A stretch of DNA of 64,000 nucleotides, taken from assembly GCA_000091205.1 (NCBI GenBank), contig AP006495.2; one strand, written 5' to 3'. The notes under the pieces were generated by a model. That model ran no database searches and had not been told where the DNA came from. It saw only the letters and a list, made by a program, of their open reading frames with translations. Origin of the DNA: Cyanidioschyzon merolae (taxonomy: Eukaryota). A program made the position numbers and the translations under genes. How positions within the stretch are numbered: the first letter of the stretch is position 1; each line of letters starts with the position of its first letter. Of the stretch, positions 17,700 through 64,000 are shown one piece after another.

Positions 17700-19150
17700 G
17701 CTAAGGTAGGCATAGGCCTGCAGCACCTAAGGGAGCGAAATGTTTCGCCTCTATAGAGTCTATATAGATATCTACCGACGCACAGGCGCATCCTAGTCGT
17801 TTTTGACCGGCACCTGTTATCGGTGTCAGTTGCTCTCCCAGCACACTTCGAGACCGAGAGGCTGCCGCATAGAGTTGTATCGCGTCAGCCCCTCGGGTCT
17901 CGTCTTCAACAACGCACATCGTCTGATCTGGATAGCAGCACTGAAGTCTCGGCTCACGGAAACCATGCGTTTAGTTGCCTCTGTTTGAACTCACAAGTGC
18001 CAGGCGTCCTCGAACGAGCGCCCTCTGTGTCACCACAGTCTCGTAATCATCCCGTCAGGCAAACACGTTTTCTCGTCTATCTCCAATCGACATCTTCTTC
18101 TTCTTCGTTGCTTGCTCTTCTGCGCCTGATTGTCGCCGAGAAGGAGATCTTCCACGTTCTTTCCTGGCAGCCGGCGAAACGGGGCCTCCAGGATCCGCCA
18201 CGCTCACTTCCATCACTTTATTTTGTTTTGAATATGAACCCGATGTCGAACGCGTCTGCCTTGAACCGCGAAGCATGACTTGAATACACGAGTGTGAAGG
18301 CTGAAGCACAGCCGACTTGCCGGACGATACGTTGCAATGACTTTAACGCAAATACAGCTCGGACGTCAGAGGAACCCGCTCATCATCATCGTGATCGCGT
18401 TTCTCCTCAACGGCGAGATACGCATCGCATCCCATGCCTGCCAGATTTGGAGGTGCGCGTATCGACCCCGCTATATAGAAAAAAGAACACAAACGAACAT
18501 CTAACTAGCAACGAGATAACGATTTCTTTCCACCGCTACGATCAAAGTCAAACAGAGGAAACGTTTTCCGTATTGTCGAAAGTTTACCTTCCAGACGAAA
18601 GGTCCCGCAAGCCGGACGAGTCGATCGGGCTCTCGCGCCATATTCCTCCGTAGGGGCGGGTGCTGTAATGAGACCTGAGCAACTCGTCGGCAACGCAGTT
18701 TATTCTGGGACTCGGAGCGGGTAGCCTGCGTCTGCGCGTCGCCCTGGTCGCAGTGGACTCCTAGCAGCTCGCTTCCCGCTGTCGCAGGCAGTGGATCTGT
18801 CAGCACATCTTCCATGCTTCCAGAATGCTGATGAATCTCGATTCCGTATTCACTGAATCATGCCGCAAGCGGACGCCCTCAGTAGTATCCCAAAGCGGCG
18901 CTGTCTCTGTGCTCCATCCGCACCATCTGTAGCGGTGCTATTGCGGGTGCTTACCGCGGGTACTAGATGCTCGACAGAACGTACGAAACTACAAGTACGT
19001 ACAGCAGAATGCATACGTAATGGGACTTGAAGAAAGGATCCAGCATCATGGACGTTTTGTCGATTACCAATACCCATCCCACAGTCGGGGATCCGCGGTC
19101 CATCGAGACGTACTGCCGAATCGCACCAATCAGCGCAATGATCTCCTTGA
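17700..19150 (-). mobile_element. Decayed copy (D) of the conserved roughly 1.3 kb leader of the Fanzor-like repeat, plus a remnant of the ORF N-terminus.
   Basis: Long nucleotide homology to A 38750-40070 (reverse complement) and B 59066-60190. Shared strings include GACGCCCTCAGTAGT, CTATTGCGGGTGCT, AGCCGGACGAG, GGCAGCCGGCGA and CTTGAATACAC. The short peptide MCVVEDETRGADAIQLY...VDIYIDSIEAKHF resembles the ORF1 N-terminus of copies A and B. Confidence 0.5.
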
Positions 19151-25300: not shown

Positions 25301-25953
25301 GCATTCGATCTTTCCCAATGCCGCAGACGTCGGCTTCGACGTACGGCAAGGTATTTTTTTGGCGGGCACTGAACGAGGTAGTTGCATATGGTTCATATCT
25401 ATAAATAACTGTACATATGCATCCCCTGGCGCGAAAATCTCTTTCTCGCCTTCTTCCCCCAGGAATACATGCCCGTCACCAGCCGCTGGTTACCAAGATC
25501 AGCGCCGTTCGATCACCCCCAAGTACCGAGAACCATAGAGTTTAGCCCAGGATCCATGACAAGTTCAAACACAGTCTCTGACTCTTTCATACCTACCAGG
25601 CATCTTTCTTGAGTCCCTCTACCATGATATCATTTCCAAATATCTAAAGGACCAAATACGTCCATAAGCACCATCCCATCATTTCTATGCATCTCAGAAA
25701 TCAAGCACCAGTACGTGAACGTACGATCCGATGAGCATTTTCGCGCCTTCTTTCAAACGTGTTGGCGCCTCCCGCGCATCCATCCTGCAGAGCGCTGCGG
25801 CGCCTCGCGCGAAAGCCAACTGCCCTGGCGCCAATCGACGGACGCAGACCGCCGCTGGCGCTGTGCAAGAGCTCTCGAGCAACAACAAGGTACGCGCTTG
25901 AACATTGTCGAAGTGGACTTCCCAGCAGAGAGAGCCGAAGATTTGAACCAGCA

Positions 25954-28389
25954 ATGGAGCGGTGTGTAGTGAAACGTGATGGTCGTCGACAGCCGGTAAA
26001 GTTTGACAAAATCACTGCGCGAATCAAAAAGCTGGCCTACGGTTTGGACCCGCTCGTGGACGTCACCGAGGTTGCGCAGAAGGTGTGCGCTGGTGTATAC
26101 GACGGGGTGCATACCTCGGAGCTTGATGAGTTAGCTGCTGAAACTGCAGCGTACATGAGCACACGGCATCATGACTATTCGATTTTAGCTGCGCGGATCG
26201 CGGTAAGCAACTTGCACAAGAACACCGAAAAGTCATTCAGTGCGGTGATGGAACGCCTATATGCCTACAGGTCTCCGAAAACGAACGATCCAGCGCCGCT
26301 GATTGCGAGCGACGTCATTGAAATAGTGCGCCGCCACGCCGAAACGATAGATGGCGCTATCATCTACGACCGCGATTTCTCTTACGACTACTTTGGGTTC
26401 AAAACTTTGGAGCGCTCGTATCTGTTACGAATCGACGGCAAGGTGGTCGAGCGTCCCCAGCAAATGCTGATGCGCGTGGCGATTGGCATCCACAAGGAGG
26501 ACCTAGATGCCGCACTAGAAACCTATGACTATATGAGTCAAAAGTACTTTACGCATGCGAGTCCGACGCTCTTCAATGCCGGCACACCGCGCCCACAGCT
26601 CAGTTCGTGTTTCCTCCTGAGCATGACGGAGGACTCCATCGAGGGAATCTATGACACACTGAAGCGCTGCGCAGTGATTAGCAAGAGCGCGGGCGGTATC
26701 GGTCTGGCGATCCACAACATTCGAGCAACGAAATCTTACATTCGCGGAACGAACGGATCGAGCAACGGTATCGTGCCGATGCTTCGTGTCTTCAATGACA
26801 CAGCCCGCTATGTGGATCAGGGGGGTGGGAAACGCAAGGGCGCCTTTGCTGTATACCTGGAGCCATGGCATGCTGATATCTTTGAGTGGCTTGATCTGAA
26901 GAAGAACCACGGCAAAGAGGAAGCACGTGCACGAGATCTCTTCTATGCACTTTGGACGCCGGATCTATTCATGCGGCGAGTGGAGGCCAACGAACAGTGG
27001 TCCCTTTTCTGTCCGAATGAGGCGCCTGGTCTTGCGGATGTCTGGGGCGATGCGTTCGACGAACTCTATCAGCGCTACGAGGCTGAAGGCAGGGCACGAG
27101 AGGTGATCCCTGCGCGAAAGCTCTGGTTCTCGATTCTCGAGTCGCAGATTGAGACAGGCACGCCCTACATGCTCTACAAGGATCATTGCAACCGGAAAAG
27201 TAATCAGCAGAATCTAGGCACGATCCGCTGCTCCAATCTCTGCACCGAGATCGTAGAGTACACTGCACCAGACGAGGTTGCGGTGTGCAACCTCGCGAGT
27301 ATCGCTCTGAACAAGTTTGTGGTGCCAGGAGACCGTGAGCGCGGAACTTGTCCCGTATTTAACTTCGACGAGCTCGCCTTTGTGACTCGCATGGTTACCA
27401 AAAACCTGAACAAGATTATCGATGTGAACTTTTACCCCATTCCCGAGGCACAGAACTCGAATCTGCGTCACCGCCCGATTGGCATTGGTGTCCAAGGACT
27501 CGCTGATGCCTTCATCCTCATGCGGATGCCATTTGAAAGCGATGAGGCTCGTGCGCTGAACCAGGAAATCTTCGAGTGTATCTACTACAACGCATTGCAA
27601 GCGTCGATCGAGCTTGCGGAGCGCGACGGACCGTATGCCTCTTTCGAGGGCTCACCAGCGGCACGAGGACAGCTTCAGTTTGATCTTTGGAACGTGAAAC
27701 CGACTTCATCTCGTTGGGATTGGGATGCGCTTAAAGAGCGTATCACTCTTCACGGACTGCGTAATTCGCTACTGGTTGCCCCGATGCCGACTGCGTCCAC
27801 CTCGCAGATCCTGGGCAACAACGAATGTTTCGAGCCGTATACCTCGAATCTGTACACCAGGCGCGTGCTCGCTGGAGAGTTCACCGTCGTGAATCAACAT
27901 CTTGTCCGTGACCTGCAGGAGCTCGGCCTCTGGAACCCGCTCGTGAAGAACAAGATCATCGCCCACGGTGGCTCGATCCAGCAAATCCCTGAGATCCCCC
28001 AAGACATACGAGACCTCTATAAGACCGTCTGGGAGGTCAGCCAACGGCGCCTACTCGACCTGGCTGCTGATCGCGGTGCCTTCATCGACCAGAGCCAGTC
28101 CCTGAACGTTTACATCGCGCAACCAACGATCGGCAAGTTGAGCTCGATGCATTTCCACGGTTGGCGTCTTGGCCTCAAAACCGGTATGTATTACCTCCGG
28201 ACGCGACCAGCAGCTGATGCTATCAAGTTCACGCTCGATCAGCGTATTCTCAAGGAAGAGAACCACACCGCTGTCAATGGATCGCAACTGCCGTGCAATC
28301 TCACGCCGCGTACCAGCGCAGCTGAGCAGTTCGCTGCACTCGCCTGCTCCCTAGATAAGAAGGATGACTGCATCGCGTGCGGAAGCTGA
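25954..28389 (+). CDS. RNR1: Ribonucleoside-diphosphate reductase large subunit (R1, class Ia).
   Basis: [24 protein letters not shown] (ATP cone), LSSCFL, NLCTEI and the C-terminal CxxC tail (CIACGS). The track ORF starts upstream at 25759, but the conserved N-terminus begins at the ATG at 25954. Confidence 0.95.
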
Positions 28390-28650
28390 GCTGTTACCGA
28401 TGATCGACTCTAAACCGTCTCAAATTATCCCATGATCGACTAGGTATGTACCAGAGCGTCTTGACGAATACCTCTTGTCGTGTTGAGGCACTGATCAACG
28501 AGCTTTCTCGTGCCTGCTGAGCTGCAGGTGCAGCGGCACTGGATTATCCACTGGGCGTGTCGTGCGTACCGTGTGTGTCGAGTCTGGTGGCGGCAACACG
28601 TGCGCTGCGTACGTCTTGCCGCGGAAGTGACGAAATGCCAAGGTAGTGAG

Positions 28651-29176
28651 AAACGTAATCCCTGATAGCAAAATGTATATCTTCGTATTCAATACATGAA
28701 CGCCTCTGATTCCCTTTGGAGAGAAGGACTATGCGAAGGCACTGAGAAACCTAATCCCTGATAGCATCATGTATATCTTCGTATTCAATACATGAACGCC
28801 TCTGATTCCCTTTGGAGAGAAGGACTATGCGAAGGCACTGAGAAACCTAATCCCTGATAGCATCATGTATATCTTCGTATTCAATACATGAACGCCTCTG
28901 ATTCCCTTTGGAGAGAAGGACTATGCAGGCACTGAGAAACGTAATCCCTGATAGCATCATGTATATCTTCGTATTCAATACGTGAACGCCTCTGATTCCC
29001 TTTGGAGAGAAGGACTATGCGAAGGCACTGAGAAACCTAATCCCTGATAGCATCATGTATATCTTCGTATTCAATACATGAACGCCTCTGATTCCCTTTG
29101 GAGAGAAGGACTATGCAGGCACTGAGAAACGTAATCCCTGATAGCATCATGTATATCTTCGTATTCAATACATGAA
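28651..29176. repeat. Tandem minisatellite of about 5.6 units of 96 bp (93-96 bp variants).
   Basis: Direct repeats of GGCACTGAGAAACCTAATCCCTGATAGCATCATGTATATCTTCGTATTCAATACATGAACGCCTCTGATTCCCTTTGGAGAGAAGGACTATGCGAA. Unit starts are at about 28651, 28738, 28834, 28928, 29024 and 29118. Each unit contains the inverted repeat CATGTAT...ATACATG. Confidence 0.95.
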
Positions 29177-29247
29177 ACAATGCCGTCTCACACCCGAAAT
29201 CAATTCCGACCGCCTGGCTGCAGCTTGGCCTCGGACCGGGTCAGGAG

Positions 29248-30078
29248 GTGCTGGTGCCTCACGCCCTGAGCATGTCAGGCGCTGCTCAGAAAACCAAGTC
29301 AAAGCACGCAACGTTTACAGAGTGCCTGCAACGGGAAGCGGAACGCGTGCAGCGACGAGAGCCGGCAGCGCTCGCGACCTGGCTTGCGGAACTTGCCGCT
29401 GCGAGCGACGACGCACAACAATCCGAAGAACTAGTTACGGAATGGCACAAGTTTTTCCAAGACTTTGTTGCACGCCAGCAGTTTCGTGTCTTTGTGACCG
29501 GTGATCAGGTGCCAGACCAGGGCGGTCGAGCAATCGCGCTCGCAGTTCGGCACAGCATCCGTCGTTCGGTGGAAACGGAGACAAAGCCAGAGGTTGCACG
29601 GATGACTACCGGAGCTTGCGTTACCGGGGCAGATGCTGCCCAGAAACTGCTCCCGGGGCTGTTACGACCAGACGTGCTTGTCTTGGCACCGGCAGCGGAG
29701 CGGGTGTGTCGGGCAGCGGCTGCAGTGGGAGCGCTTTCGCGCTTCCGCCGCTCCCGTTGGACTTGTTTGAAAGTGATCGCTCGTCACGAGCGACTAGAAG
29801 TTAGCATAGAACGCTGTAAGGCCTTGGCAAGAACACAAGAACGCCATAGGAACGGTGTCATCGTGCTGGGAACGCCTCATCGTATCAGCGAGTTGATGCA
29901 GCGTCAAGTACTTGGCGCACCGCGGAAAGCACTAGTACTCGATATGAGCCTTGACGTGAAATGCCGCCGTTTGTTGCGTATGCCTGGTGTACAGCAAGCT
30001 GCCCTGCATTGTCTGCGGATGATTGCAAAAGATCTTGCAGGTGATCATAGCCTTCCGGAGCTCGTCTTCTACGCCTAG
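29248..30078 (+). CDS. Hypothetical protein with faint resemblance to a degenerate helicase domain-1 or CMS1-like fold.
   Basis: 276-aa ORF with VIVLGTPHRISELM and LVLDMSLD. No firm family assignment. Confidence 0.3.
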   Translation: MLVPHALSMSGAAQKTKSKHATFTECLQREAERVQRREPAALATWLAELAAASDDAQQSEELVTEWHKFFQDFVARQQFRVFVTGDQVPDQGGRAIALAVRHSIRRSVETETKPEVARMTTGACVTGADAAQKLLPGLLRPDVLVLAPAAERVCRAAAAVGALSRFRRSRWTCLKVIARHERLEVSIERCKALARTQERHRNGVIVLGTPHRISELMQRQVLGAPRKALVLDMSLDVKCRRLLRMPGVQQAALHCLRMIAKDLAGDHSLPELVFYA

Positions 30079-38504: not shown

Positions 38505-40071
38505 AGCAGTCTCACTGTTCGGTTCGTTACAGACAATCCTTCTGTTAGGGATTAAGAAACGCTCCCCAAAATCACCCACGTTGAGAAAGAAAAAAGAAAA
38601 CTTGCCTCCAGAGGCTATGCAACGATAGCTTCTAGAGACGTTTCGAATGGTGGCATGGCCTCCGAACCGTTGTACCCCGTGGCAAGATCGAGTCTGTACA
38701 TAATTATCCAAAAGTTGAAGGCGCTCGATACGCCGGACAGCGCTGCGCGGCGCTGCTACCGGGACACGTTGCGGCTATCGCGCGATCGCGTATCGCGTGA
38801 CTGTCGATTGAATCCTTTTTGTCCAGATATATTCCTTATTTGGACAGAGCGATATGGACGCAGGTTGTTTTTTGATGGCAAAACGCTGATATGGACCATG
38901 GATGCCAGTCTGGGGGATAGATATTGCAACAAATGAAAGCGCTCAGCAATGTTCACTCTCGTTCCGAGTTCCACGACGCACATTTTCGCACGGCTATACT
39001 GGTCGCTTTGCACGTTCCCTGGTGCGCCGCATACTGGCAGTGAGCACCCGCAATAGAGCCTATGCTGCTCGTGCGGATACTGAACGGAGACAGAGCGGCT
39101 TTGCTATATCAGTGGGGGTGTCGGCTCGATGCGTGGTGCATTCGACACGGAACCAGGGTACATTATCATTCTGGGGCCTGCCAGCTGCGAATGCAGACCC
39201 ACTGCCTGTGGCAGCGCGAATTGATTCGCAGGGAGTCCTCTGCGACCAGCACGACGCCCAGAAGGAGCTTATCCGCTCCGAGTCCCAGAGTAACCCGCGT
39301 TTCGGACGAGTTGCGTAGACCTCACTACAGCACTAGGGACTGGGGGAAGCGTGAAGCACGAGCCCGGGAGACTCTTGCGGCTCGCGGGACCCTCTGCTTC
39401 TACGGTAAACTTTCGACCATACGGAAAGCTTTTTGCCCCTTTTGACGTTTATCGTAGAGAGGCAAAGACATCTTTATATCGTTGCTAGGTAGTAGTGAGT
39501 TTCAGTTCTACGTTCGATATAGTGCGGTCGGTTAGCGCTCCTCCGTATTCAGCATGCATGGGACACGACTCGCATGTCGTCGTTGAAGGGAAACACGATC
39601 CTAACTATTCGTTGACTTGCTATTCTACAGTACAAGATCTATTTGCGTGAAAGTCGTAGCAAAGTATAGCTTTCAATTCAATCGCGTGTCAAGCCTCAAC
39701 TAAGTGTATTCAAGTGATTTTTTGCGGTTTATAGCAGAAGCGTTCAACGTGCGTTGTTTATCCAAAATTAAAAAATGGGAATAGTATAGAGAAGGAGGTG
39801 GAGGATCCTGCAGGCCGAGTGTCGCCGGCTGCCAGAAAAAAACGGAAAATAATGCCGAGTCCAGAAGAAAAGGAGGAGAATAAGAAGCAAGGGAGGGAGC
39901 CCCCGTAGTCAATGGCTGCACGAAAGACGACACTGCGACGACATGGTAGTCGAAGCCTGTCTTCCCAAACATATCAAGGATCCCTACAAGCAAAAGATGC
40001 GAGAGGCCATCAGAAGCCGTATCCATTCGTACTCCAGGTAGGTTCATAAGGTTTCTGGAGGACTGAATCAT

Positions 40072-41914
40072 ATGTTGAGGGAGATATACGATGACGTTAC
40101 GGACACCAAACCGGTCGAGGTTCCGGAAGAATTTTTCGACAAGACCTTTATTCGTCACCTGATGGTTAGAACAGGAGAAACGTCGGGGGGAAATGATGGA
40201 GTGCATGCACTCCACGAAAACTACGCAGAATACCACTCCAATGGTACTCGATACAGCGTTCACCCGTGTATTTACGAATACGGGGCGAAGAAGTACCTCA
40301 CGAACCTGAAGAACCATATGACGATGAACCTCGAACGTTTCATGATACGCACCGTGTTTGCACTTTATCCGGGCCTGTCTTGCAATAGGATATGGGGCAT
40401 CATCGAAATCATCTCGAACGATCGTCAACATGAAGATGAGATCGAATTCGTCGACAAGAAGACATCACGCAGGAGAAAGAATGAGGATTCTGTAATCCGT
40501 ACGGTTATGCAAGAGCACCGTGCGGTACTGGGCTGGCGAATCCAACAGACAAGATATCAGAGTTGAAAAAAGATAAGGAAAGATACTATCGCCTCGTCCC
40601 GCGCCATGTTGTGTTTCTGGACCGAGAACTCGAACGCAAGGCAGAGGTGAAGCTGGGTGAGGAAAACAATGAAGAGTGGGAGAAACGGAATGCAGTCCTA
40701 ATGGCGAAGCGCTTCAACGTGGTTCCAATGTGCAAGATCAAGTCACATTTTATGACTATCGACTTCGGCGTCCTTTACGGCATAATGAAGGAGATCAGTC
40801 CGGAGTTCAATGTTAGTAGGGAGGAACTCTCCGGTGAAAACCGGGATACGTACAGTAAGAAGAATATCTTCTATTTCAAACGTCTCAAAGTGAGCAAACA
40901 AAAGGTATTTGCTGGGTTGATCGAAATCGATGGAGTAGTCATGTGTGTACACTATCGGCGGTTGACGAAAGATCGTCCAGTCCCGCCCTCTGCTGCGCCC
41001 TCGACGAAGCATGAAGAAAACGAACAAGCGGATCCTGCGACCGAGAAAGTGCGAGGTACCGACTTTGACGTTGGCACGGACCCCGGCAACGCAAATATCA
41101 TAAGCATCGCAGAACCCAAGCGTGCCGTGCGGAAGATGGTATTGACGGTAAATTACGTCGGAAAGGCATGCGTCTTTTGACATCCTCGAGAGCAAGATAC
41201 TATCGAGAATCGGGAATCATGAATGCGAAGAACAAATTCGACAAATAGAATTCAGGAATGAAAGAACACCTGGAAGCTTTGAGCGAGGTGACAAGCCGAG
41301 GAGCGGACTTTGAAGCTTTTCTGAAATTCGTGGAAGTTCGCGTTGCTCATTGGGATGCGCTATGGAAAGAGTACACCAAGCCCAGTTGGGCTCGTCTGCG
41401 TATGAATCTATACGGTGGGAGGCAGCGGGCGATCGCGAACTTTTTCAATCAGTTGAGCGCCTTGAAGGAGAATGAAAGTCAGAAGCTTGTTGTAGCATAC
41501 GGAGCAGGGCGCTGGAAGACCCAAAAGGGGTGTATGCCAGCTCCGACGACGAGGGTGAACAAGGAGTGCGCAAGGCGTTTCATTACGATACCCGTAGATG
41601 AGTTCCGAACATCGTATACACACCATGAACTGGGGTGTACATTTCAAAGAGTGGAGCTGGAAAAGTGTCAATGGAGCCCTGAGGAAATCGCAAAGTACGG
41701 ACTGCTGACGGAGGAGCAAAGGGAAAGGAGGGCAAAAGTTCAAGGGCTACTCGCACTGGTGAGTACAACCAGTGACGGCAAGAAACGTATGGAGTTTGTG
41801 AACCGAGATTTTAACGCCGCTCTCCATATACGGAGATGTGCGGTGCTGGAGGAAAACCCCCAGAGTAGACAAGAGGGAATTTTGATGGAGAACCTCTCAA
41901 GTCGAACTATATGA
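40072..41914 (+). pseudogene. TnpB/Fanzor-like (OMEGA-family RuvC) nuclease gene of about 614 codons, broken into three frames in this copy.
   Basis: RuvC-I-like motif [30 protein letters not shown] segment where TnpB has the RuvC-II Glu, consistent with a Fanzor1-type rearranged site. Zinc-finger-region motif VDEFRTSYTHHELGC...KC. C-terminal RuvC-III motif FVNRDFNAALHI (RDxNAAxNI). ORFs 40072-40566, 40563-41180 and 41258-41914 are in frames 1, 0 and 2. A 1-nt deletion relative to B near 40530 causes the first shift. Confidence 0.7.
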
Positions 41915-42080
41915 GAAAAAATTGGAAGCAGTAGTAGGTGGCCGGTCCAAAAAAACTGGGAGGCGTCTGCACGTCAGTTGGAGACGTTTTGTCTAGGGCG
42001 CGTTCACCGCCACTACTGTACACCGTTGGCGTCGTTCGAGTGCGAAAGGCGTTTGCAGTTGGCTTCGTCACGCATCCATA
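41915..42080 (+). ncRNA. Candidate omega-RNA / right-end scaffold region of copy A (hypothesis).
   Basis: Non-coding tail immediately after the stop, conserved in A, B and C. Shared strings include GTCTAGGGCGCG, CGCCACTACTG and GGCGTCGTTCGA. The inverted segments CAGTAGTAGGTGGCCGG / CCGCCACTACTG and CGTCT..AGACG could form stems. The position matches where TnpB and Fanzor guide RNAs are encoded. Confidence 0.3.
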
Positions 42081-56132: not shown

Positions 56133-57023
56133 CTAGTTCCCAAAGGCGCCCAGCAGTTGCTCAACAGCAGGCTTGACACGTTTTTCATACCAGGACGGAT
56201 CCGGACAGAGCTCCTGGATTTTGCGCGCCATTGCTTGCCAGCCGTCTTTAACACGGCTCAAATCCAGCCCAAGTTCATGGTAGAGCTCCAGTAGTAATGC
56301 AACGTTGCGTCGGTGCAAAAAGTCAACTGGCGGTGCATTCTCCTCCTGAGCCAGCACCGCATAACTCACAATGCGAAGCTGATCGCGCATGTCGTTGGCG
56401 AGCTGTTCCTCGATGGCTTCGGTGCGGCTCAGCGTTGCCAGATTTTTTCCCTCGTAGCATTCTTTCTTCACCCTTGCAGCCGCAATGCCAGCTTCGATGA
56501 TCGCCTCCGCATTGGTCGTAATGACTGCCGCCACGTCAGCGCCCTGAAAACTCCTCCTACCACGATATGACTCAATCTCTTCGATAGGGACGAACATCAG
56601 CGCTGTATCATTTTTCCGGCAGGTGTTCGCGGCTTCTGTATGGAAGCCGTCACCACACCGAAGAAGCGACTTGTGACTGCGCAAAAACGCCCGCAGGGCC
56701 TGCGCACGCCTCGACATGTGATCCGTCTTTGGGACCGAAGTTGGAGCGGGCGCACCATTGTTCTGGGAAGCAGCACCAGCGCCGTCACGCGGGCCGGCAC
56801 CCACCGGGAACGGTGGAGTTAATGTCGAGGTGATCTGCAGCGCCCGACAAGCACGCTTTGCGTTCGCCAACGAGCATGGGGAAACCCGCCGGAGCGACCT
56901 CCCGTGCGAGGAAAGCCAACGGCTACTCCAAACGAAGCCAGTCGACGCCTTCCTAACCAACGCTACACTTGAAGCCTTTCGATGTTTCGGTGAATAATGC
57001 AAAAAAATGTTTGTAAAAGCCAT
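56133..57023 (-). CDS. Hypothetical conserved-looking protein; the start is ambiguous (ATG at 57023 or at 56717).
   Basis: Uninterrupted ORF. The C-terminal half is not low-complexity (FVPIEEIESYRGRRSF...NAEAIIEAGIAAARVKK...LLELYHELGLDLSRVKDGW). The first 25 or so codons overlap the tail of repeat copy B. Confidence 0.4.
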   Translation of the reverse strand: MAFTNIFLHYSPKHRKASSVALVRKASTGFVWSSRWLSSHGRSLRRVSPCSLANAKRACRALQITSTLTPPFPVGAGPRDGAGAASQNNGAPAPTSVPKTDHMSRRAQALRAFLRSHKSLLRCGDGFHTEAANTCRKNDTALMFVPIEEIESYRGRRSFQGADVAAVITTNAEAIIEAGIAAARVKKECYEGKNLATLSRTEAIEEQLANDMRDQLRIVSYAVLAQEENAPPVDFLHRRNVALLLELYHELGLDLSRVKDGWQAMARKIQELCPDPSWYEKRVKPAVEQLLGAFGN

Positions 57024-60000
57024 GTTCGAGCGCACGACACGCACCAACAAACGCCCCTCTAAAGTCGAACGACGCCAGCGGTATGCAGTAGTGGCGTGTG
57101 ACGCGCCCTAAACAAGACGACTCCAACTGACGTAGAGACGCCCACCAGGCGTTCTCGGCGGTCCATGTACTAATGCTTTCAATCATGTCTCATATAGTTC
57201 AACATTGGGAGGTTGTCCAATAAAGTTCGCTCTTGTCCATTATGAGGTCTTCTTTCCATCACCGCACATTTGTTTATATTAATTGCGCCATAAACATCTC
57301 GGTTCACAAACTCCATACGTTTCTTGCCATTAGAAGTTGTACTTTCTAATGCGAGCAATCCTCGAACAATCGCCCACCTTTCCATTTGCTCTTCCGTCAG
57401 CGCTCCGTACGTTTTTATATCCTCAGGGCTCCGCTGGCACTTTTCTCTTTCGGCTCTCTGAAGTGTACATCCCAACTCGTGGATTGTATACGATGTTCGG
57501 AACTTATGTACAGGTATCCTAGCGAAACGCCTTGCGCAATCCTTATATATTCTTGTCGTGGGAGCTGGTGTAGTCCCTTTTTTGGGCGCCCAGCGCCCTG
57601 CTCTGCACGCTACTACGAGCTTTTGACTTTGATCCTCTTTGAGGGCACTGAACTGATTGAAAAAGTTGACGAATCCACGCTGCTTCCCACAGCACAGATA
57701 CATTCGCGATAGAGCCCACATGGGCTTTAGATATTCTTTCCAAAGCGCCTCCCAATGAGCAACGCGAACTTCCATGAATTTCAGAAAAGCTTGAAAGTCT
57801 GCTCATCGGATCGTCAGCTCGCTCGAAGCTCTCAGGTGCTCCTTGATTTATGCATTCCATGTCTCAGTTTTCTTCCTCGCATTCTTTATACCGGATTCTC
57901 GATAATATCTAGTTCTTGAGAACCTCAATAGACGCATGTCGCTCTCACGTAAGCTGCCGTCAATGCCATCTTCCGCACGCTTGGGAGCAACGATGGTTAT
58001 GCTATTCGTATTCGCAGGGTCCGCCCCAACGACAAAGTCGTTATCCTGCACCTCCTGCGTCGCTGGATCTGCCTCTTTGATTTCTTCATGCTTCGCAGAG
58101 GGCGAAGCGAAAGGCACGATAGGACGATCCATCTTCAACCGCCAATAGTGCACACACATGGCTACACCATCGGTTTCGACCATCCCAGCGAATACCTTTT
58201 GTTTGCTCACTTTGAGACGTTTGAAATAGAAGATACTCTTCTTACCGTATGTCTCACGGGCTTCACCGGAGAACTCCTCCATTGTAGCATCGAACTCGGG
58301 ACTGATCTCTCTCATGATGCCATGAAGGGTTCTGGAGTCGATACTCACAAAATGTGACTTGATGTTGCACATTGGAACCACGTTGACGCGCCTCCCCATT
58401 AGAATAGCCTTCCGTCTCTCCCACTCTTCATTTGTCTCTACACTCAGCTTCATTTCCGCCTTGCGTTCGAGCTCTCGGTCCAGAAACACGAAATCGCGCA
58501 GAATGAGGCGATAGTATCTTTACTTGTCTTTTTTCAACTCTGATATCTTGTCTATTGGATTCGCCAACCCCAGTACCGCACGGTGCTCTTGTATAACCGC
58601 ACGGATCACAGAAGCTTCATTCGTGCTCCTGAGTGACGCCTTCTTGTCGACGAATTCGACCTCATCTTCATACTATCGATCGTTCATGGTGCCATTGATC
58701 ATCGCCCATATTCCTTTGCGAGAGACGCCCGTGTGGAGTGCAAACACGGCGCATATCATGAAACGTTCGAGGCTCTCTGTTAAATGGTTTTTCAGGTTCG
58801 TAACGTACTTCATCGTTCCGTATATGTAAATATTCGAGTCACCCTTGCATCGAGTACCCTCGAAGCAGAATTCCGCGAAGATTTCGTGAAGAGTGCGAAC
58901 CAGCTCATTTTCCCTCTGCGCTTTCCCTGTACCAAGCATCAAGTGACGAATATGTGTCTGGTCGAAGAGCTTGTCCGGAAGCTCGACCGTTTCCATGTGC
59001 GTCACGTCGCGATACGTCTGCATCACCAAATGCATCAGTCCTGTCGACGCCTTGACAATACTCATGGAGTACGAGTTGACATGTTTTTTGATAGTGTCTC
59101 GAAACTTTTTCTTATATGGATATTCTTTATACGTTTACGAAGACCGGCGTTCACCACCATGTTGTCATAAAGTAGTCTTTCTTGCATGCATCGACGTAGG
59201 GCCTCCCCCTTTTGCTTCTTCATCTCCCCCTGTCCTCTGGACTCCACACTGTTTTCGGTATTTTTTTTCCGGCAGCCGGCGATAATGGGCCTACAGAATC
59301 GTCGACTAGCTTTTTCATAACTTTCTTTTTTTAGCTTTTCTTCTCAAAACAGAACTCTCTTTGAACGCGTCTATTATGTGTTGCGAGAAAACTCTTGAAT
59401 ACACTTGTCTTAGGTTCGAAACACATATGAACTGAAAAACTGTACTTTGCTAGGGCTCGAACGGAAATCCAACTATTACAGCTAAACAACACGCTCCTGA
59501 TCACGATAGCGTTTTCCTTCAACATCGGCGGCATTCGCGTCGTGTCTCATGCCTGCCTGATTTCCCACGGGTGCTAACCGATAGCTCTATTTAGAACAAA
59601 GAAAAAAGAACAGAGACTCGCAGTCCGCGAGCAACGATATAGCGATTTCGTACCCGCTCTACAATAAACGTTGAAAGAGGAAAATCATACAGAATTTTAG
59701 AAAGCTTACTTTCCAGGCGCAAGGTCCAGCGAGCCGGACGAGTATGCAAGGCTCGTGCTCCATGCTCCCCCAGTGGCAAGCGCTTTAGTGCGACCTGACC
59801 AACTCATGCACCAAGCAGTTTATTCTTGCGCGAGGAGCGGGTATGGTGCAAGTGGTCATCGCATTGCTCGAAGATGATTCCTAGTATATTGCTTCGCGCT
59901 GCCGCAGGCTGCACGTCTGTCTCCGCAGTTTGCAGGCTCCCTGAATGATAACGAGTCCGGATTCCGTCTCAGTGGAGCCACACCTCGAGACGACGCCCTC

Positions 60001-60190
60001 AGTAGTCTCGCAAAGCCATTCTTTCGCTGTGATGAGGCTGCACCTTCGGTGTAAGCAATAGGGAAGGCTCGGCACGCTAGAGAACTACAAAACGGCCAGC
60101 ACATCTCGAACGAATTATAGGTAATGGAGTTTGAAAGTAGGCTGAAGAATATCGAGCGCTTTCATTTCTTTCAATATTCATTCCGCTGTC
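56960..60190 (-). mobile_element. Copy B of the Fanzor-like dispersed repeat (leader + ORF + tail).
   Basis: Collinear nucleotide homology with copy A across the leader (59066-60190 versus A 38750-40071), the ORF and the tail (56990-57178 versus A 41915-42080). Boundaries are approximate. Confidence 0.6.
57179..59065 (-). pseudogene. TnpB/Fanzor-like nuclease gene, copy B, interrupted by nonsense mutations.
   Basis: Paralogous to the copy-A ORFs, for example MFLDRELERKAEMKL...[16 protein letters not shown]...[18 protein letters not shown] and KRMEFVNRDVYGAININKCAV. In-frame stops include a TAG at 58675-58673 (where copy A has CAA), a TAA at the ELKKDK junction, and a TGA where copy A has GGA before ADFxAFLKF. 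Confidence 0.7.
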
Positions 60191-60396
60191 AGCGATCCAT
60201 AAAGCAAGTCAACATTTTATCATCAAATGAAACGCCAGAATCAGGTGCTCACCATTTAGGAACACGCGCCGACGCAAATATCGCCGCCGTTGGTCGGCAG
60301 GTACGGCCCGACCTCGCGGGGCAGGCTTCAACTTTGCTGAACGTTCGCTGAACCTCACGTTTCAATTTCTTTAAAGCGTCTGCTGAGGCTTGTCCA

Positions 60397-61667: not shown

Positions 61668-63650
61668 TCAGCTATCCGCTAAGTTCGTATTCGCGTCTAG
61701 GGGCCGCCAGCCAAGGTCTTGCAAGGCCGTCAAAGAAGCCGATACGCTAGAGCTCCGCCAGCGCGGCGACTTCCAGATCGAGCCGCCCCGAGTCTCCTCC
61801 GTCCAGAGCGGAGCACCGGTATCCCCAACGTGATAGCTGTTCTCGATTCGTACGTTCGTTACACCGATCTGGGCAAACGCTTTCGTCAGCTGCGCGAAGG
61901 GATCCTCGGTGACGCTCCAGTGCGGATCCGCAATGGATACCGAGCGCCCTGACGACACCGAATGTGAGATCGGTGAGTTATCGGGCAAGCATGGGTTCCC
62001 CGTCGCTGGTTTCCTTCGTTCGCCAACAGCACCGAGAGAGACAGAACAAGAGCGCCTAATCGCGCCGCTTGCCATTTGAATTGCCGGGTCCCAGGAGATG
62101 AACGCCTGCTGTGTCAACGGTTCGACCTCTGGGTGTAGCGCTGTACGATTACCTGTAGCGTCACGTTCTGACAAAGAAATACGCTCGTATTCGTCAAAAG
62201 AACGCCATGCGTTGACCATAGCCCCTGATGCTTGAGGCGGTGCCCCTTCGGCTGCATCACCCACAAGCCTTGTTGAGCGTTCTGAGGCCGCGCGCGTCCC
62301 CAGGCCGGGCTCCGCATGCCACGACAAGGGCGAACTGCTTCCCCAGATGCATCCAAGCTTAAACAGATCGTTCTCTCTTGCTGCACTAATCTTGGGAGAG
62401 GCGAACTCGTCAAAGACGAAGTCGTCCTCATTTGGACCCGCCTCGGCACCCGAGATACTCCCTGCGTCCTGCCTCGCATCGATATCAGAGAGCGGCTGCA
62501 GCGTCGCGTTGGAGCAGGGCTTCTTCGTCTGCGTACAGGTCGCGGATCGAAACGCATGCAACGGTGGTGGAGGCCCGTACCTACTCTGGAGAAAAGCCTC
62601 CCGGGATATGGCATCTGTGTTGGAGGCAAACTCATGTCGGTATAAACACGCGGGATCCACGCAGCGTTTCTGGGTCGGTGGCTGCGGCGGTTTTGCGCCG
62701 TTGGATGCCCGCTTTCGAGATATGACCTTTGCGCCGGCGAATGCAACCGCTACCGTATCGCTTGCATCGAGTGGCCTTATTGACGGGTTCCGTCCAGATG
62801 TCCATTGTGCAGACTCAATCTGGCTCTGTTTCCATTCAACGAATGTTTTCAGGTATTGCTCACAGGCCTGGACAAATGCCTCACAATAGCGCACCGTGCC
62901 ATAGGAGACGTGCACTTCATGGCCTTGCCAGCGCGCCCCGTCGTAAAGCTGTATTGCGCGGGTGGCTGCCGCCTCATCTGCATACTCCACATAGACGCCA
63001 GTTCCCTGGACAAAGAGAACTCGTTGGATTCTCCCCGTCTTTCCGAACATGTCCGAGCGCCGAATTGTGTGCTCGGACCAGAGAGATTGGTGCAATCCAC
63101 GAATGCAGATCAAGTTCCGCTGCACGATAAAGGTCTGACGCATTGTTCGTATCCGCTTGGCGAGCTCGTACTCCCGCTGCTCCTGACGTTCCCTCTCTAG
63201 CTGTTCTTGGCGAAGCTGTCGCTCCTTTTTGCGCCTGTTTATTTCACGTAGTCGTTCCTTCTCTGCAAGACGTTCATCACTAAGCTCCTCGCGGAGTTGA
63301 AAGCGGCTCTCGTCGTACGGCGTCCGGCACGCGGGGCACCGGGGGACCTGGCCCTCCTCGCACGCTGTGCGAAGGCGACTCAGGCACCACAGGCACACTT
63401 GATACCCGCACGCGCAAGGAAAGAATGCTTTCTCTGCGGCATCCAGTTCCTCAAGGCAGAGCGGACACTCGCTGCTCTCTTCCGAAGGTTCGCAAGGTGC
63501 CTCATCGGCTGACTTTCCAGAAGCGTGACGGTGCGTAGCCTGGCGCCGCGTCCGTCCGTTTCTTGCCCGCCCGCCTGTCGGCTGCCTAACGCGTTTCAAA
63601 GAAAAAGAACTGTCAGAGGTATCCACAAGTTTGGCACCGCTGAACGCCAT
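61668..63650 (-). CDS. NOT4: CCR4-NOT complex subunit 4 (NOT4/Mot2): RING E3 ligase with an RRM and a C3H zinc finger.
   Basis: RING: CPLCLEELDAAEKAFFPCACGYQVCLWCLSRLR...CPACRTPYDE. RRM: VYVEYADEAAATRAIQLYDGARWQGHEVHVSYGTVRYCEAF. C3H: CVDPACLYRHE. ATG at 63650-63648. Confidence 0.9.
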   Translation of the reverse strand: MAFSGAKLVDTSDSSFSLKRVRQPTGGRARNGRTRRQATHRHASGKSADEAPCEPSEESSECPLCLEELDAAEKAFFPCACGYQVCLWCLSRLRTACEEGQVPRCPACRTPYDESRFQLREELSDERLAEKERLREINRRKKERQLRQEQLERERQEQREYELAKRIRTMRQTFIVQRNLICIRGLHQSLWSEHTIRRSDMFGKTGRIQRVLFVQGTGVYVEYADEAAATRAIQLYDGARWQGHEVHVSYGTVRYCEAFVQACEQYLKTFVEWKQSQIESAQWTSGRNPSIRPLDASDTVAVAFAGAKVISRKRASNGAKPPQPPTQKRCVDPACLYRHEFASNTDAISREAFLQSRYGPPPPLHAFRSATCTQTKKPCSNATLQPLSDIDARQDAGSISGAEAGPNEDDFVFDEFASPKISAARENDLFKLGCIWGSSSPLSWHAEPGLGTRAASERSTRLVGDAAEGAPPQASGAMVNAWRSFDEYERISLSERDATGNRTALHPEVEPLTQQAFISWDPAIQMASGAIRRSCSVSLGAVGERRKPATGNPCLPDNSPISHSVSSGRSVSIADPHWSVTEDPFAQLTKAFAQIGVTNVRIENSYHVGDTGAPLWTEETRGGSIWKSPRWRSSSVSASLTALQDLGWRPLDANTNLADS

Positions 63651-64000
63651 TCAAAAGTCGAACGATGCCGAAGGTGTACAGTAGTGGCGGCAAACGCGCC
63701 CTAGACAAGACGTCCTCAGGCGACGTGCAGACGCATCTGTCTTTTTCGACCGGCCACCTACTACTGGTTCCAACTTTGTCTCATACAGTTCCACTTTGAG
63801 TGATTGTCAAGCAAAGTCCACTCTTGGCCACTCTGGAGGTCTTTTCTCCAGCACCGCACATTTCCTTGTATTGATTGCGGCATTAAAGTCACGATTCACG
63901 AAATCAATCCCTTTCTTGCCACTATTAGTTGTACTTAATAATGCAAGTAGCCCACGAACTTTTGCCCTCCTTTCCATTTGCTCATCCGTCAGCGGTCCGT
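63651..64000 (-). mobile_element. Copy C of the Fanzor-like repeat. Only the tail and the last 64 or so codons of the ORF are in the window; it runs off the right edge.
   Basis: The tail 63651-63806 is nearly identical to the copy-A tail (CCAGTAGTAGGTGGCCGGTC...GTCTAGGGCGCG...CCGCCACTACTGTACACC...GGC(A/G)TCGTTCGA). The C-terminal coding fragment 63807-64000 on the - strand reads LSTTNSGKKGIDFVNRDFNAAINTRKCAVLEKRPPEWPRVDFA*, with a perfect RDxNAAxN RuvC-III motif. Confidence 0.6.

What the first reader, a model, noticed from the sequence alone, without database searches (positions are those of the whole stretch)
63620..63680. Repeat ends sit on or next to host start codons; the B and C tails run into a shared ATGGC(T/G)TT start
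Three of the four copies end within 100-250 bp of, or directly on, a host start codon. The leader ends lie about 250 bp from the IRE1 ATG (A), about 200 bp from the SAM-carrier ATG (B) and about 100 bp from the 19244 ORF (D). The tail of C ends on the very nucleotide before the NOT4 ATG at 63650. The tail of B runs into ATGGCTTTTAC, the first ATG of ORF 56133-57023, and C runs into ATGGCGTTCAGC. Both read MAF. There are further short matches downstream, such as GCGTT..AGG..GCCGAC..GGC. Either these elements target or persist in 5' regions, or the tail contributes promoter and start-codon sequence to downstream genes. Alternatively the true repeat boundary lies beyond what I could align by eye.
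Basis: inference. Interest (0 to 1): 0.5.

Follow-up and report, generated by a model that had tools for sequence, protein, structure and literature searches.

The report
Fanzor transposon end supplies NOT4 start
The flagged spot is where the right end of a known Fanzor (RNA-guided nuclease) transposon of the red alga Cyanidioschyzon merolae meets the NOT4 gene; the NOT4 start codon lies inside the transposon end, the "shared MAF start" with a second copy is a coincidence, and across the family these ends sit next to host start codons far more often than chance.

Summary
The window is C. merolae 10D chromosome 13. The four repeats are copies of the known ~3.2 kb Fanzor1 element CMe-1A (Bao & Jurka 2013); D is a leader-only derivative.

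An alignment of 47 independent copies places the 3' (right) end about 8-16 nt past a conserved GGCGTT, closing a long terminal hairpin.
- **Copy C** ends at 63635 +/-2, not at 63651. The annotated NOT4 ATG (63650-63648) and codons 1-5 (MAFSG) are therefore transposon sequence. The family consensus reads ACG where C reads ATG.
- **Copy B** ends at 57042, 18 nt before the CMM332C ATG. Its MAF start is ancestral: orthologues at element-free sites in Cyanidiococcus and a metagenome relative also begin MAFV.

C's ATGGCGTT is homologous to B's GGGGCGTT (57057-57050), not to B's ATGGCTTT, and the flanks beyond the ends show no similarity. The shared start is coincidence.

The right end lies within 50 nt of a long-ORF boundary at 16 of 47 sites, 12 of them same-strand start codons, against about 5.5% expected (p about 2e-9). 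Left ends sit about 130-320 nt from divergent genes.

Whether the tail, the presumed omega-RNA region, drives the downstream genes is untested.

The parts
63635..64000 (-). Copy C of the Fanzor1 element (CMe-1A family), 3' part only because the window ends. It holds the C-terminal remnant of the Fanzor ORF and the conserved non-coding tail up to the right end (RE).
   Evidence: Self-BLAST gives 80% identity to A and 75% to B. The RE profile matches 63769-63639 with E = 8e-37. The boundary comes from the 47-site alignment.
63807..63998 (-). C-terminal remnant of the Fanzor ORF of copy C (...FVNRDFNAAINTRKC..., the RuvC-III motif), ending in a stop codon.
   Evidence: Translation. The motif corresponds to invariant D636/N638/A640/N642 of the family alignment.
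63635..63676 (-). Terminal imperfect hairpin of the RE in copy C (CACCTTCGGCATCGTTCGA-CTT-TTGAATGGCGTTCAGCGGTG). It is partly degenerate in this copy, and its 3' arm contains the NOT4 ATG.
   Evidence: Per-copy folds and visible covariation, e.g. CACC/GGTG against CGCC/GGCG. Pair counts for the inner 12 bp are.
63648..63650 (-). NOT4 start codon, lying inside the element RE. The family consensus has ACG here, and an in-frame TGA (consensus CGA) directly precedes it.
   Evidence: It is the annotated start of XP_005537187.1.
61668..63650 (-). Host gene for CCR4-NOT subunit 4 (RING E3, 660 aa). Codons 1-5 (MAFSG) are element-derived.
   Evidence: Pfam zf-RING_4, E = 1.4e-14, residues 62-113. Identical in length and start to BAM81151.1.
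63615..63634 (-). The 20 nt directly beyond the RE of copy C. This is the position where a Fanzor/TnpB guide would be read from, and it corresponds to NOT4 codons 6-12.
   Evidence: Position inferred from the published architecture, an RE scaffold followed by about 20 nt of flank (10.1101/2023.08.09.552727). Not tested here.
57042..60236 (-). Copy B, full length at about 3.2 kb and degenerate. It has frameshifts and stops, and the catalytic Glu motif VDEF has changed to VHKF.
   Evidence: left-end core at 60224; RE profile 57178-57045.
56133..57023 (-). Host gene CMM332C (phycobilisome-like, 296 aa). Its ATG lies 18 nt beyond the RE of copy B, and its MAF start is ancestral.
   Evidence: Pfam PF00502, exact match to XP_005537185.1, and orthologue alignments.
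38862..42063 (+). Copy A, full length at about 3.2 kb. The ORF is broken into three frames but keeps the DPG, DEFRTS and NRDFNAA motifs. Its RE faces the 3' end of the acid phosphatase gene 574 nt away.
18155..19129 (-). Copy D, the leader (left-end) part only, matching the published TE-N2_CMe relationship. A 44 nt RE-like fragment lies at 17771-17814.
   Evidence: searches (left-end core at 19117; E = 5.7e-5), and PMC3627910.

Best explanation
Positions 63620-63680 are the junction between the right end (RE) of a degenerate Fanzor1 transposon copy and the host NOT4 gene. The transposon belongs to family CMe-1A of Cyanidioschyzon merolae.

**The element.** It is about 3.2 kb long, with no terminal inverted repeats and no target-site duplication.
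- It starts with a leader of roughly 1 kb. According to the literature, the 5' 635 bp of that leader also exists as the separate element TE-N2_CMe.
- Next comes a Fanzor1 (eukaryotic TnpB) ORF of about 700 aa.
- It ends with a conserved, structured tail of about 150 nt that closes in a long imperfect hairpin at the very terminus.
- By homology with characterised Fanzor1/TnpB systems, this tail is the omega/reRNA scaffold, and the guide would be read from the roughly 20 nt of host DNA just beyond it. This step is inferred, not shown.

**Copy C.** The element end is at 63635 +/-2. The NOT4 ATG at 63650 and its first five codons are therefore transposon sequence, from the 3' arm of the terminal hairpin. 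Relative to the family consensus TTCGAACGGCGTT, copy C reads TTTGAATGGCGTT. These are two CpG-to-TpG changes: one creates an in-frame stop and the next creates the ATG. No other ATG lies upstream of the RING domain, so NOT4 as annotated, and as conserved in every 660-aa strain variant examined, starts on a transposon-derived codon.

**Copy B.** This is a simple insertion 18 nt upstream of the ancestral ATG of CMM332C. The MAF of that gene predates the insertion, so the B/C resemblance is coincidence.

**The family pattern.** The element typically sits in sense orientation between a divergent gene pair. The left end lies about 130-320 nt from one gene's ATG and the RE lies 0-100 nt from the other's. 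The downstream gene must then be transcribed from within or through the tail. The most likely reason is that transcription has to cross the RE to make the guide, which makes such insertions tolerable. This last step is inference.
For: **Fanzor1 identity.**
- A profile of 45 homologues hits the Fanzor1 chains 9cf0 (E = 5.7e-21), 8gkh (1.1e-17) and 9cer (3.5e-10).
- The AF2 model has pLDDT 87. Its best Foldseek hits are SpuFz, PpFz and GtFz, with E = 6e-17 to 4e-15 and TM 0.51-0.72.
- D398, E569 and D636 are invariant in the family alignment.

**Family identity.** The organism is C. merolae 10D. Size, divergence and the absence of TIRs match the published description of CMe-1A and TE-N2_CMe.

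**Boundary.** It comes from 62 tails covering 47 distinct flanks. Two unrelated copies carry the C-type terminus: GAATGGCGTTCAGCGA in L075 and GAACGGCGTTCAGCGG in L036.

**Tail structure.** 83.5% of cells are paired, against 34-61% for slid controls. The GU-rich hairpin implies a strand-specific structure, and 12 pairs show double changes (11/500 shuffles reach this).

**NOT4 start.** There is an in-frame TGA directly upstream, the RING domain starts at residue 61, and the next Met is at about residue 171. The annotation and the 660-aa strain variants examined use this ATG.

**B's MAF is ancestral.** This follows from the orthologue alignments. Syntenic orthologous loci lack both elements. The reconstructed empty site of B aligns collinearly with L002.

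**Flanks are unrelated**.

**Site statistics.** 16 of 47 sites lie within 50 nt of an ORF boundary, against 5.5% expected (binomial p = 2e-9). The left-end control gives 1 of 13. The downstream ORFs are ordinary host genes.

**Literature.** Published Fanzor1 reRNA consists of an RE scaffold plus about 20 nt of flank.
Against: - There are no expression data. Use of the NOT4 ATG, any omega-RNA from this family and any promoter activity of the tail are all unverified.
- Covariation in the tail is modest, and the structure was drawn from these same sequences.
- RNAalifold alone recovered only a 4-bp stem, and Rfam has no match.
- The ancestral insertion point in NOT4 could not be mapped. The N-terminal 60 aa are poorly conserved and the DNA alignment to orthologues is not significant.
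- The site statistics use an ORF proxy (first ATG, at least 150 aa) rather than curated genes, and most sites come from metagenome relatives, not from 10D itself.
- The 3' boundary varies by a few nt between copies, from GGTG up to GGTGGCGG.
Confidence: 0.8

Rival explanations
1. Shared functional start module. The tails of B and C both donate a homologous ATGGC(T/G)TT start (MAF), and perhaps a promoter, to the downstream genes.
For: Both ORFs start MAF directly at or after a tail. MAF is rare among ORF starts in these data, 4 of 131 ORFs of at least 250 aa, and those four may simply be these two gene families.
Against: - The two strings are out of register by 34 nt.
- B's MAF, and even ATGGCGTTTGTG, is present at element-free orthologous sites.
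- The flanks are unrelated.
- The RE profile does not match the orthologous CMM332C starts.
Confidence: 0.05
2. Target-site similarity. The last 16 nt or so (GGCGTT...GGTG) are not part of the element but a preferred insertion target, so the NOT4 ATG is host sequence that the element landed next to.
For: The CMM332C start in relatives (TCGACATGGCGTTTGTG) looks like the RE terminus (TCGAACGGCGTTTGTTGGTG). IS200/IS605-type elements do use short specific targets (own knowledge).
Against: - The segment is the 3' arm of a hairpin whose 5' arm lies inside the element, and it co-varies with that arm.
- It is present at more than 40 unrelated sites.
- In IS605-type elements the target flanks the left end, not the RE (own knowledge).
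- RE-like motifs are not enriched in the flanks.
- The RE HMM finds nothing at the empty orthologous sites.
Confidence: 0.07
3. Compact-genome chance. In a 16.5 Mb genome with short intergenic spacers, any tolerated insertion will lie near a start codon, so the proximity carries no information.
For: Intergenic gaps are short, with medians of 490-1030 nt by the ORF proxy. Only three right ends are visible in the window itself.
Against: - With the same ORF caller, a random intergenic point lies within 50 nt of the next ORF 5.5% of the time. The observed fraction is 34% (16/47), p = 2e-9.
- Left ends of the same elements are not close: 1 of 13 within 50 nt, median about 200 nt.
- For at least three downstream genes the Pfam domain starts before the next Met, so the RE-adjacent ATG is needed.
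Confidence: 0.08

Closest known systems
CMe-1A / TE-N2_CMe, the Fanzor1-carrying repeats of Cyanidioschyzon merolae (Bao & Jurka 2013, PMC3627910)
   Same: Same organism (10D), about 3 kb, copies about 75-80% identical to each other, no TIRs and no recognisable TSD. The elements encode only a Fanzor1 protein, and a leader-only derivative (copy D) corresponds to TE-N2_CMe.
   Different: The paper left the ends and insertion sites undefined. This analysis adds four things: a defined RE, a left-end core (GATGACAAAACG preceded by a T-rich tract), the terminal hairpin, and the position relative to host start codons. The Repbase consensus itself was not available for a direct alignment.
Characterised Fanzor1 RNA-guided nucleases: SpuFz1 (8gkh), PpFz (9cf0), GtFz (9cer) and SfAV Fanzor1 with its reRNA
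   Same: Same fold and catalytic triad. An N-terminal basic, NLS-like stretch is present in intact relatives (MPPKGKRKKD). A conserved structured tail of about 150 nt lies at the RE, where the reRNA scaffold is found in the characterised systems.
   Different: Sequence identity is only 11-16%. No RNA, TAM or cleavage data exist for this family. The window copies A and B are pseudogenes, and B has lost the catalytic Glu.
Bacterial IS200/IS605 elements (TnpB plus omega-RNA at the RE, with subterminal hairpins)
   Same: No TIRs, no TSD, a hairpin at the end, and a TnpB-type nuclease whose guide region abuts the RE. The GU-rich hairpin is strand-specific.
   Different: The element carries no TnpA (Y1) transposase, and none was looked for in the genome. 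The left-end and RE hairpins are not alike. The mobilisation mechanism is unknown.
Transposon exaptation as promoter or first codons, and promoter-proximal integration (e.g. Tf1 and Ty3 in yeasts; own knowledge)
   Same: The element end provides the first codons of a conserved host gene. The insertions are concentrated just upstream of start codons in a compact genome.
   Different: The donor here is the guide-RNA-encoding end of an RNA-guided nuclease transposon. No integrase tethering or promoter activity has been shown.

Membership tests
Fanzor1 (eukaryotic TnpB homologue) | TnpB/Cas12-type RuvC fold that resembles solved Fanzor1 structures | tested here: met
   Profile against PDB sequences: 9cf0 E = 5.7e-21, 8gkh 1.1e-17, 9cer 3.5e-10. 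The AF2 model of intact relative P0119 has pLDDT 87. The top seven Foldseek hits are all Fanzor1, with E = 6e-17 to 4e-15 and TM 0.51-0.72; Cas12f follows at E about 5e-5.
Fanzor1 (eukaryotic TnpB homologue) | Catalytic D-E-D triad of the split RuvC domain | tested here: met
   D398 (DPG), E569 (DEFRT) and D636 (NRDxNAAxNI) are invariant in 45 homologues. Copy A keeps all three motifs. Copy B has VHKF in place of VDEF. Both ORFs are frameshifted.
Fanzor1 (eukaryotic TnpB homologue) | Guide RNA (omega/reRNA) encoded at the 3' end or RE, with the guide read from the flank | tested here: inconclusive
   A conserved tail of about 150 nt is present. 83.5% of cells are paired against 34-61% for slid controls, with 12 doubly changed pairs (11/500 shuffles). 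RNAalifold recovers only 4 bp unaided, and Rfam has no match. No RNA data are available.
Fanzor1 (eukaryotic TnpB homologue) | RNA-guided, TAM-dependent DNA cleavage | not testable with these tools
   This needs biochemistry or a cell assay.
CMe-1A (Repbase family of C. merolae) | About 3 kb, encodes only Fanzor1, no TIR or TSD, copies about 80% identical to the consensus, found in C. merolae | tested here: met
   A and B are about 3.19 kb and 74.5-80% identical pairwise. The left end against the reverse complement of the RE scores at the shuffle mean. No TSD is seen in the flanks. The host is strain 10D. The description is in PMC3627910.
CMe-1A (Repbase family of C. merolae) | Sequence identity to the Repbase consensus; 5' 635 bp equal to TE-N2_CMe | not testable with these tools
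Copy D (leader only, 18155-19129) fits the described relationship.
IS200/IS605-type (peel-and-paste) transposon | Y1 HUH transposase TnpA acting on similar subterminal hairpins at the left end and RE, with insertion 3' of a short target motif | tested here: not met
   The element has no transposase ORF. The RE hairpin and the candidate left-end hairpin are unlike each other. A T-rich ...TTTYC tract precedes the left-end core at 19 sites, but it may belong to the element. A trans-acting TnpA in the genome was not searched for.

The most novel reading that the evidence does not exclude
CMe-1A Fanzor1 elements insert, or survive only, in sense orientation within the short 5' leaders of host genes. 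Under this reading their guide-RNA-encoding right end serves as promoter or 5' UTR, and occasionally as start codon as for NOT4, for a substantial fraction of neighbouring host genes. A transposon built around an RNA-guided nuclease would then have become part of ordinary gene expression in an ultra-compact eukaryotic genome, with each copy's would-be guide matching the 5' end of the gene it feeds.
Probability: 0.25. Interest if true: 0.75.

Novelty: new variant of a known kind. Interest (0 to 1): 0.5.

Why it matters
The repeat itself is already described. Three things appear to be unreported; full-text searches linking Fanzor to C. merolae or the Cyanidiophyceae returned only Bao & Jurka 2013 and one passing mention.
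- A defined right end for this Fanzor1 family.
- A conserved housekeeping gene (NOT4) whose annotated start codon and first five codons come from that end.
- A strong, orientation-specific association of the right end with host start codons.

If the tail drives or permits expression of the downstream gene, that would explain how about 150 copies of a 3 kb element persist in a 16.5 Mb genome with almost no spare DNA. It would also link the outward transcription needed to make a Fanzor guide to host gene expression. C. merolae 10D supports gene targeting by homologous recombination (own knowledge), so each element could be deleted or its tail tested directly.

Tried and rejected
- **Direct protein searches.** Pfam and PDB sequence searches with the reconstructed window protein gave nothing. 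An 8-sequence profile also failed. A 45-sequence profile and a structure model were needed.
- **CMM332C start as an RE relic.** I tested whether the ancestral CMM332C start (TCGACATGGCGTTTGTG) is a relic of an older RE, or whether RE-like motifs recur in flanks. The RE HMMs do not hit the orthologous starts even at E < 10. Motif counts in flanks are no more than about 2-fold above background on 3-5 hits. Rejected as unsupported.
- **Mapping the NOT4 insertion point.** DNA alignment to the Cyanidiococcus and L002 orthologues was not significant.
- **A 666-aa NOT4 variant.** P0353 (MPQRKQMAF...) looked like a possible empty or extended allele. Its contig start merely duplicates internal NOT4 sequence, so it is an assembly artefact.
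- **Pyrimidine-rich target.** I asked whether a T-rich target typical of 5' UTRs explains the orientation. Host upstream regions are not pyrimidine-rich, about 47%.
- **Terminal inverted repeats.** None found.
- **Rfam.** No family matches in the window.
- **Exact look-up of the NOT4 ORF.** The first look-up failed, although the identical 10D protein is in the cluster.
Full report
**What the sequence is.** Three ORFs of the window are exact matches to Cyanidioschyzon merolae strain 10D proteins on an 866,983 bp chromosome record:
- the SAM carrier BAM81150.1;
- the phycobilisome-like CMM332C/XP_005537185.1;
- the acid phosphatase BAM81146.1.

The NOT4 ORF corresponds to BAM81151.1/XP_005537187.1, 660 aa, beginning MAFSGAKL. 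Both ATGs named in the finding are therefore the annotated starts.

**The repeat.** Self-BLAST gives four copies:
- A, 39037-42053 on the + strand;
- B, 57050-60025 on the - strand, 74.5% identical to A;
- C, 63643-64000 on the - strand, cut by the window end, 80% identical to A and 75% to B;
- D, 18155-18957, which matches only the leader.

Translation of A and B shows a broken ORF of about 700 aa carrying the motifs [20 protein letters not shown] and FVNRDFNAA. Direct Pfam and PDB sequence searches failed.

The protein nevertheless has 173 homologues at E <= 1e-3 in the word-indexed search. A full HMMER scan seeded with the intact relative P0119 found 1,265 cluster representatives at that threshold.

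Three results place the family in Fanzor1:
- A profile of 45 diverse members hits the solved Fanzor1 chains 9cf0 (5.7e-21), 8gkh (1.1e-17) and 9cer (3.5e-10).
- The AlphaFold model of intact relative P0119 has pLDDT 87.
- The seven best Foldseek matches of that model are all Fanzor1 structures, with TM 0.51-0.72. Cas12f follows far behind.

Bao & Jurka (PMC3627910) already described this family in C. merolae as CMe-1A. They report about 150 copies, each about 80% identical to the consensus, about 3 kb long, with no TIRs and undetermined TSDs. They also report that the 5' 635 bp equals TE-N2_CMe. Copies A to C fit CMe-1A and copy D fits the TE-N2 relationship. I confirmed that there are no TIRs and no TSD.

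**Where the tail really ends.** A three-way alignment of the window tails already showed conservation continuing through C's ATG. One scan of metagenome contigs with the C-terminal protein region returned 80 loci. These yield 62 non-identical tails, representing 47 distinct flanks.

Anchored on the conserved GGCGTT, the consensus terminus is ...GCCACTACTGTACACCGTTGGCGTCGTTCGACTTTCGAACGGCGTT(GT)TGGTG(Y). Beyond it every copy differs. The last 40 nt or so form a long imperfect hairpin, CACCGTTGGCG-TCGTTCGA-CTT-TCGAACG-GCGTTGTTGGTG.

Several observations support the hairpin:
- CACC/GGTG changes to CGCC/GGCG in L068.
- The inner stem TCGTTCGA/TCGAACG changes to ACGTTTTTC/GAAAGGCGT in other copies.
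- In some copies the closing stem reaches back to the invariant GCCAC motif.

On the 42-sequence alignment, my four-helix model pairs 83.5% of cells, against 34-61% when partners are slid. Twelve pairs change on both sides, a value reached by 11 of 500 shuffles. The many G-U pairs make the structure strand-specific.

This support is moderate, not decisive. RNAalifold alone found only 4 bp and Rfam has no match. The position and size match the published Fanzor1 reRNA: a scaffold of about 120 nt at the RE plus about 20 nt of flank (10.1101/2023.08.09.552727).

**Copy C and NOT4.** In element sense, C reads ...CACCTTCGGCATCGTTCGACTTTTGA|ATG|GCGTTCAGCGGTG|CCAAACTT. The element therefore ends at 63635 +/-2, and the ATG (63650-63648) lies 14-17 nt inside it.

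Two unrelated copies carry the same terminal variant: GAATGGCGTTCAGCGA in L075 and GAACGGCGTTCAGCGG in L036. This string is therefore element sequence.

Against the consensus TTCGAACGG, copy C has TTTGAATGG. These are two CpG-to-TpG changes: one makes an in-frame TGA and the next makes the ATG.

The RING domain starts at residue 61 and the next Met is near residue 171. The annotation and the 660-aa strain variants examined use this ATG.

Orthologues in Cyanidiococcus (L003) and a JGI relative (L002) have different N-termini, longer by 35 and 16 residues, and no element upstream. The exact ancestral insertion point could not be recovered.

**Copy B and CMM332C.** B ends at 57042/57041 (GGGGCGTTTGTTGGTG[C]) and the ATG is at 57023, leaving an 18 nt spacer.

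The orthologous genes at element-free, syntenic sites start MAFVQS (L003) and MAFVDV (L002), with DNA ATGGCGTTTGTG. MAF is therefore ancestral host sequence.

Joining B's left flank to its right flank gives a sequence that aligns collinearly with L002's uninterrupted upstream region. The score equals the maximum of 200 shuffles. This indicates a simple insertion just upstream of the start codon.

C's ATGGCGTT is homologous to B's GGGGCGTT, not to B's ATGGCTTT. The flanks beyond the ends are unrelated, with p = 0.39-0.85. The 'shared MAF start' is a coincidence of two different origins.

**The general pattern.** I used one ORF caller throughout (first ATG, at least 150 aa, longest ORF kept where ORFs overlap).
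- At the RE, the end lies within 50 nt of a long-ORF boundary at 16 of 47 sites. Twelve are same-strand start codons and four are opposite-strand stops. Within 100 nt the count is 22 of 47. ORFs running off a locus are missed, so these counts are conservative.
- For a random point in element-free intergenic gaps of the same sequences, the expectation is 5.5% within 50 nt and 10.9% within 100 nt. The binomial p values are 2e-9 and 6e-10.
- At the left end of the same family, 1 of 13 sites lies within 50 nt and the median distance is about 200 nt. At 11 of the 13 sites the left end faces the ATG of a divergent gene. The window values agree: D 136-148 nt, B 161-173 nt, A 358-370 nt.

The RE-adjacent ORFs are ordinary host genes: POT1-like, TACC, methyltransferases, eIF5B, Vps54, aldehyde dehydrogenase, carboxyltransferase, PPR and PI4K. 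In several of them the Pfam domain begins before the next in-frame Met, so the RE-proximal ATG is required.

**Mechanism, and what is inferred.** Four things are shown:
- the identity of the element;
- its ends;
- the transposon origin of the NOT4 start codon;
- the ancestral origin of the CMM332C start.

Three things are inferred: the tail encodes the omega/reRNA; transcription crossing the RE, which is needed to make a guide, lets a downstream gene be expressed; and this is why insertions 0-100 nt from an ATG survive. Insertion preference for promoter-proximal DNA is an alternative that I could not separate from selection. I found no target motif at the RE side. The T-rich tract before the left-end core may belong to the element.

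**Verdict.** The element is already known. The transposon-derived NOT4 start and the right-end/start-codon association appear to be new and can be tested directly in a tractable model alga.

Noticed in passing
window 28545-29212: A tandem array with a 96-nt period (at least 6 units). Alternate units are 97-99% identical and neighbouring units about 61%, which gives a 192-nt super-period. It lies between ORFs 25759-28389 and 29248-30078.
   Followed up: no
window 17771-17814 and 18155-19129: Copy D is not just a leader. A 44-nt fragment matching positions 12-56 of the RE-tail profile lies 340 nt beyond it on the same strand (E = 5.7e-5). This suggests an internally deleted element rather than an independent TE-N2 insertion.
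   Followed up: partly
L003 11880-11910, L002 about 8560-8585, window 57005-57030: The ancestral CMM332C start region (CTCGACATGGCGTTTGTG) resembles the element's terminal arm (TTCGAACGGCGTTTGTTGGTG). Profile searches and motif counts do not support homology, and the resemblance remains unexplained.
   Followed up: yes
19 left-end flanks, e.g. window 38862-38873 and 60225-60236: The 10 nt before the left-end core GATGACAAAACG are T-rich and end in YC at nearly all 19 distinct sites, and a TGAT(T) often lies 13-22 nt upstream. This could be the true 5' terminus or a TAM-like target motif.
   Followed up: partly
L042 1128-1209 and 1317-1451 (also L045, L051): A right end is followed immediately by a truncated left-end fragment, and an inverted left end lies 200 nt further on. 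The elements are nested or in tandem.
   Followed up: no
L084 1-85: The start of a metagenome contig duplicates internal NOT4 coding sequence. This creates a spurious 666-aa NOT4 (P0353, MPQRKQMAF...) and is an assembly artefact.
   Followed up: yes
P0003 and similar database proteins: Some predicted Fanzor proteins in the databases read straight through the non-coding tail to the element end (...QPLKVELYETTLEAVVDGRSKRTRRRLHLGWRRFVQGGF...). Intact distant relatives stop about 15-20 aa after the RuvC-III region, so the tail overlaps the ORF end only slightly.
   Followed up: no
window 57848-58489 region (copy B): Copy B has lost the catalytic Glu (VDEF has become VHKF) as well as carrying frameshifts, yet it keeps a recognisable right-end hairpin.
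   Followed up: no
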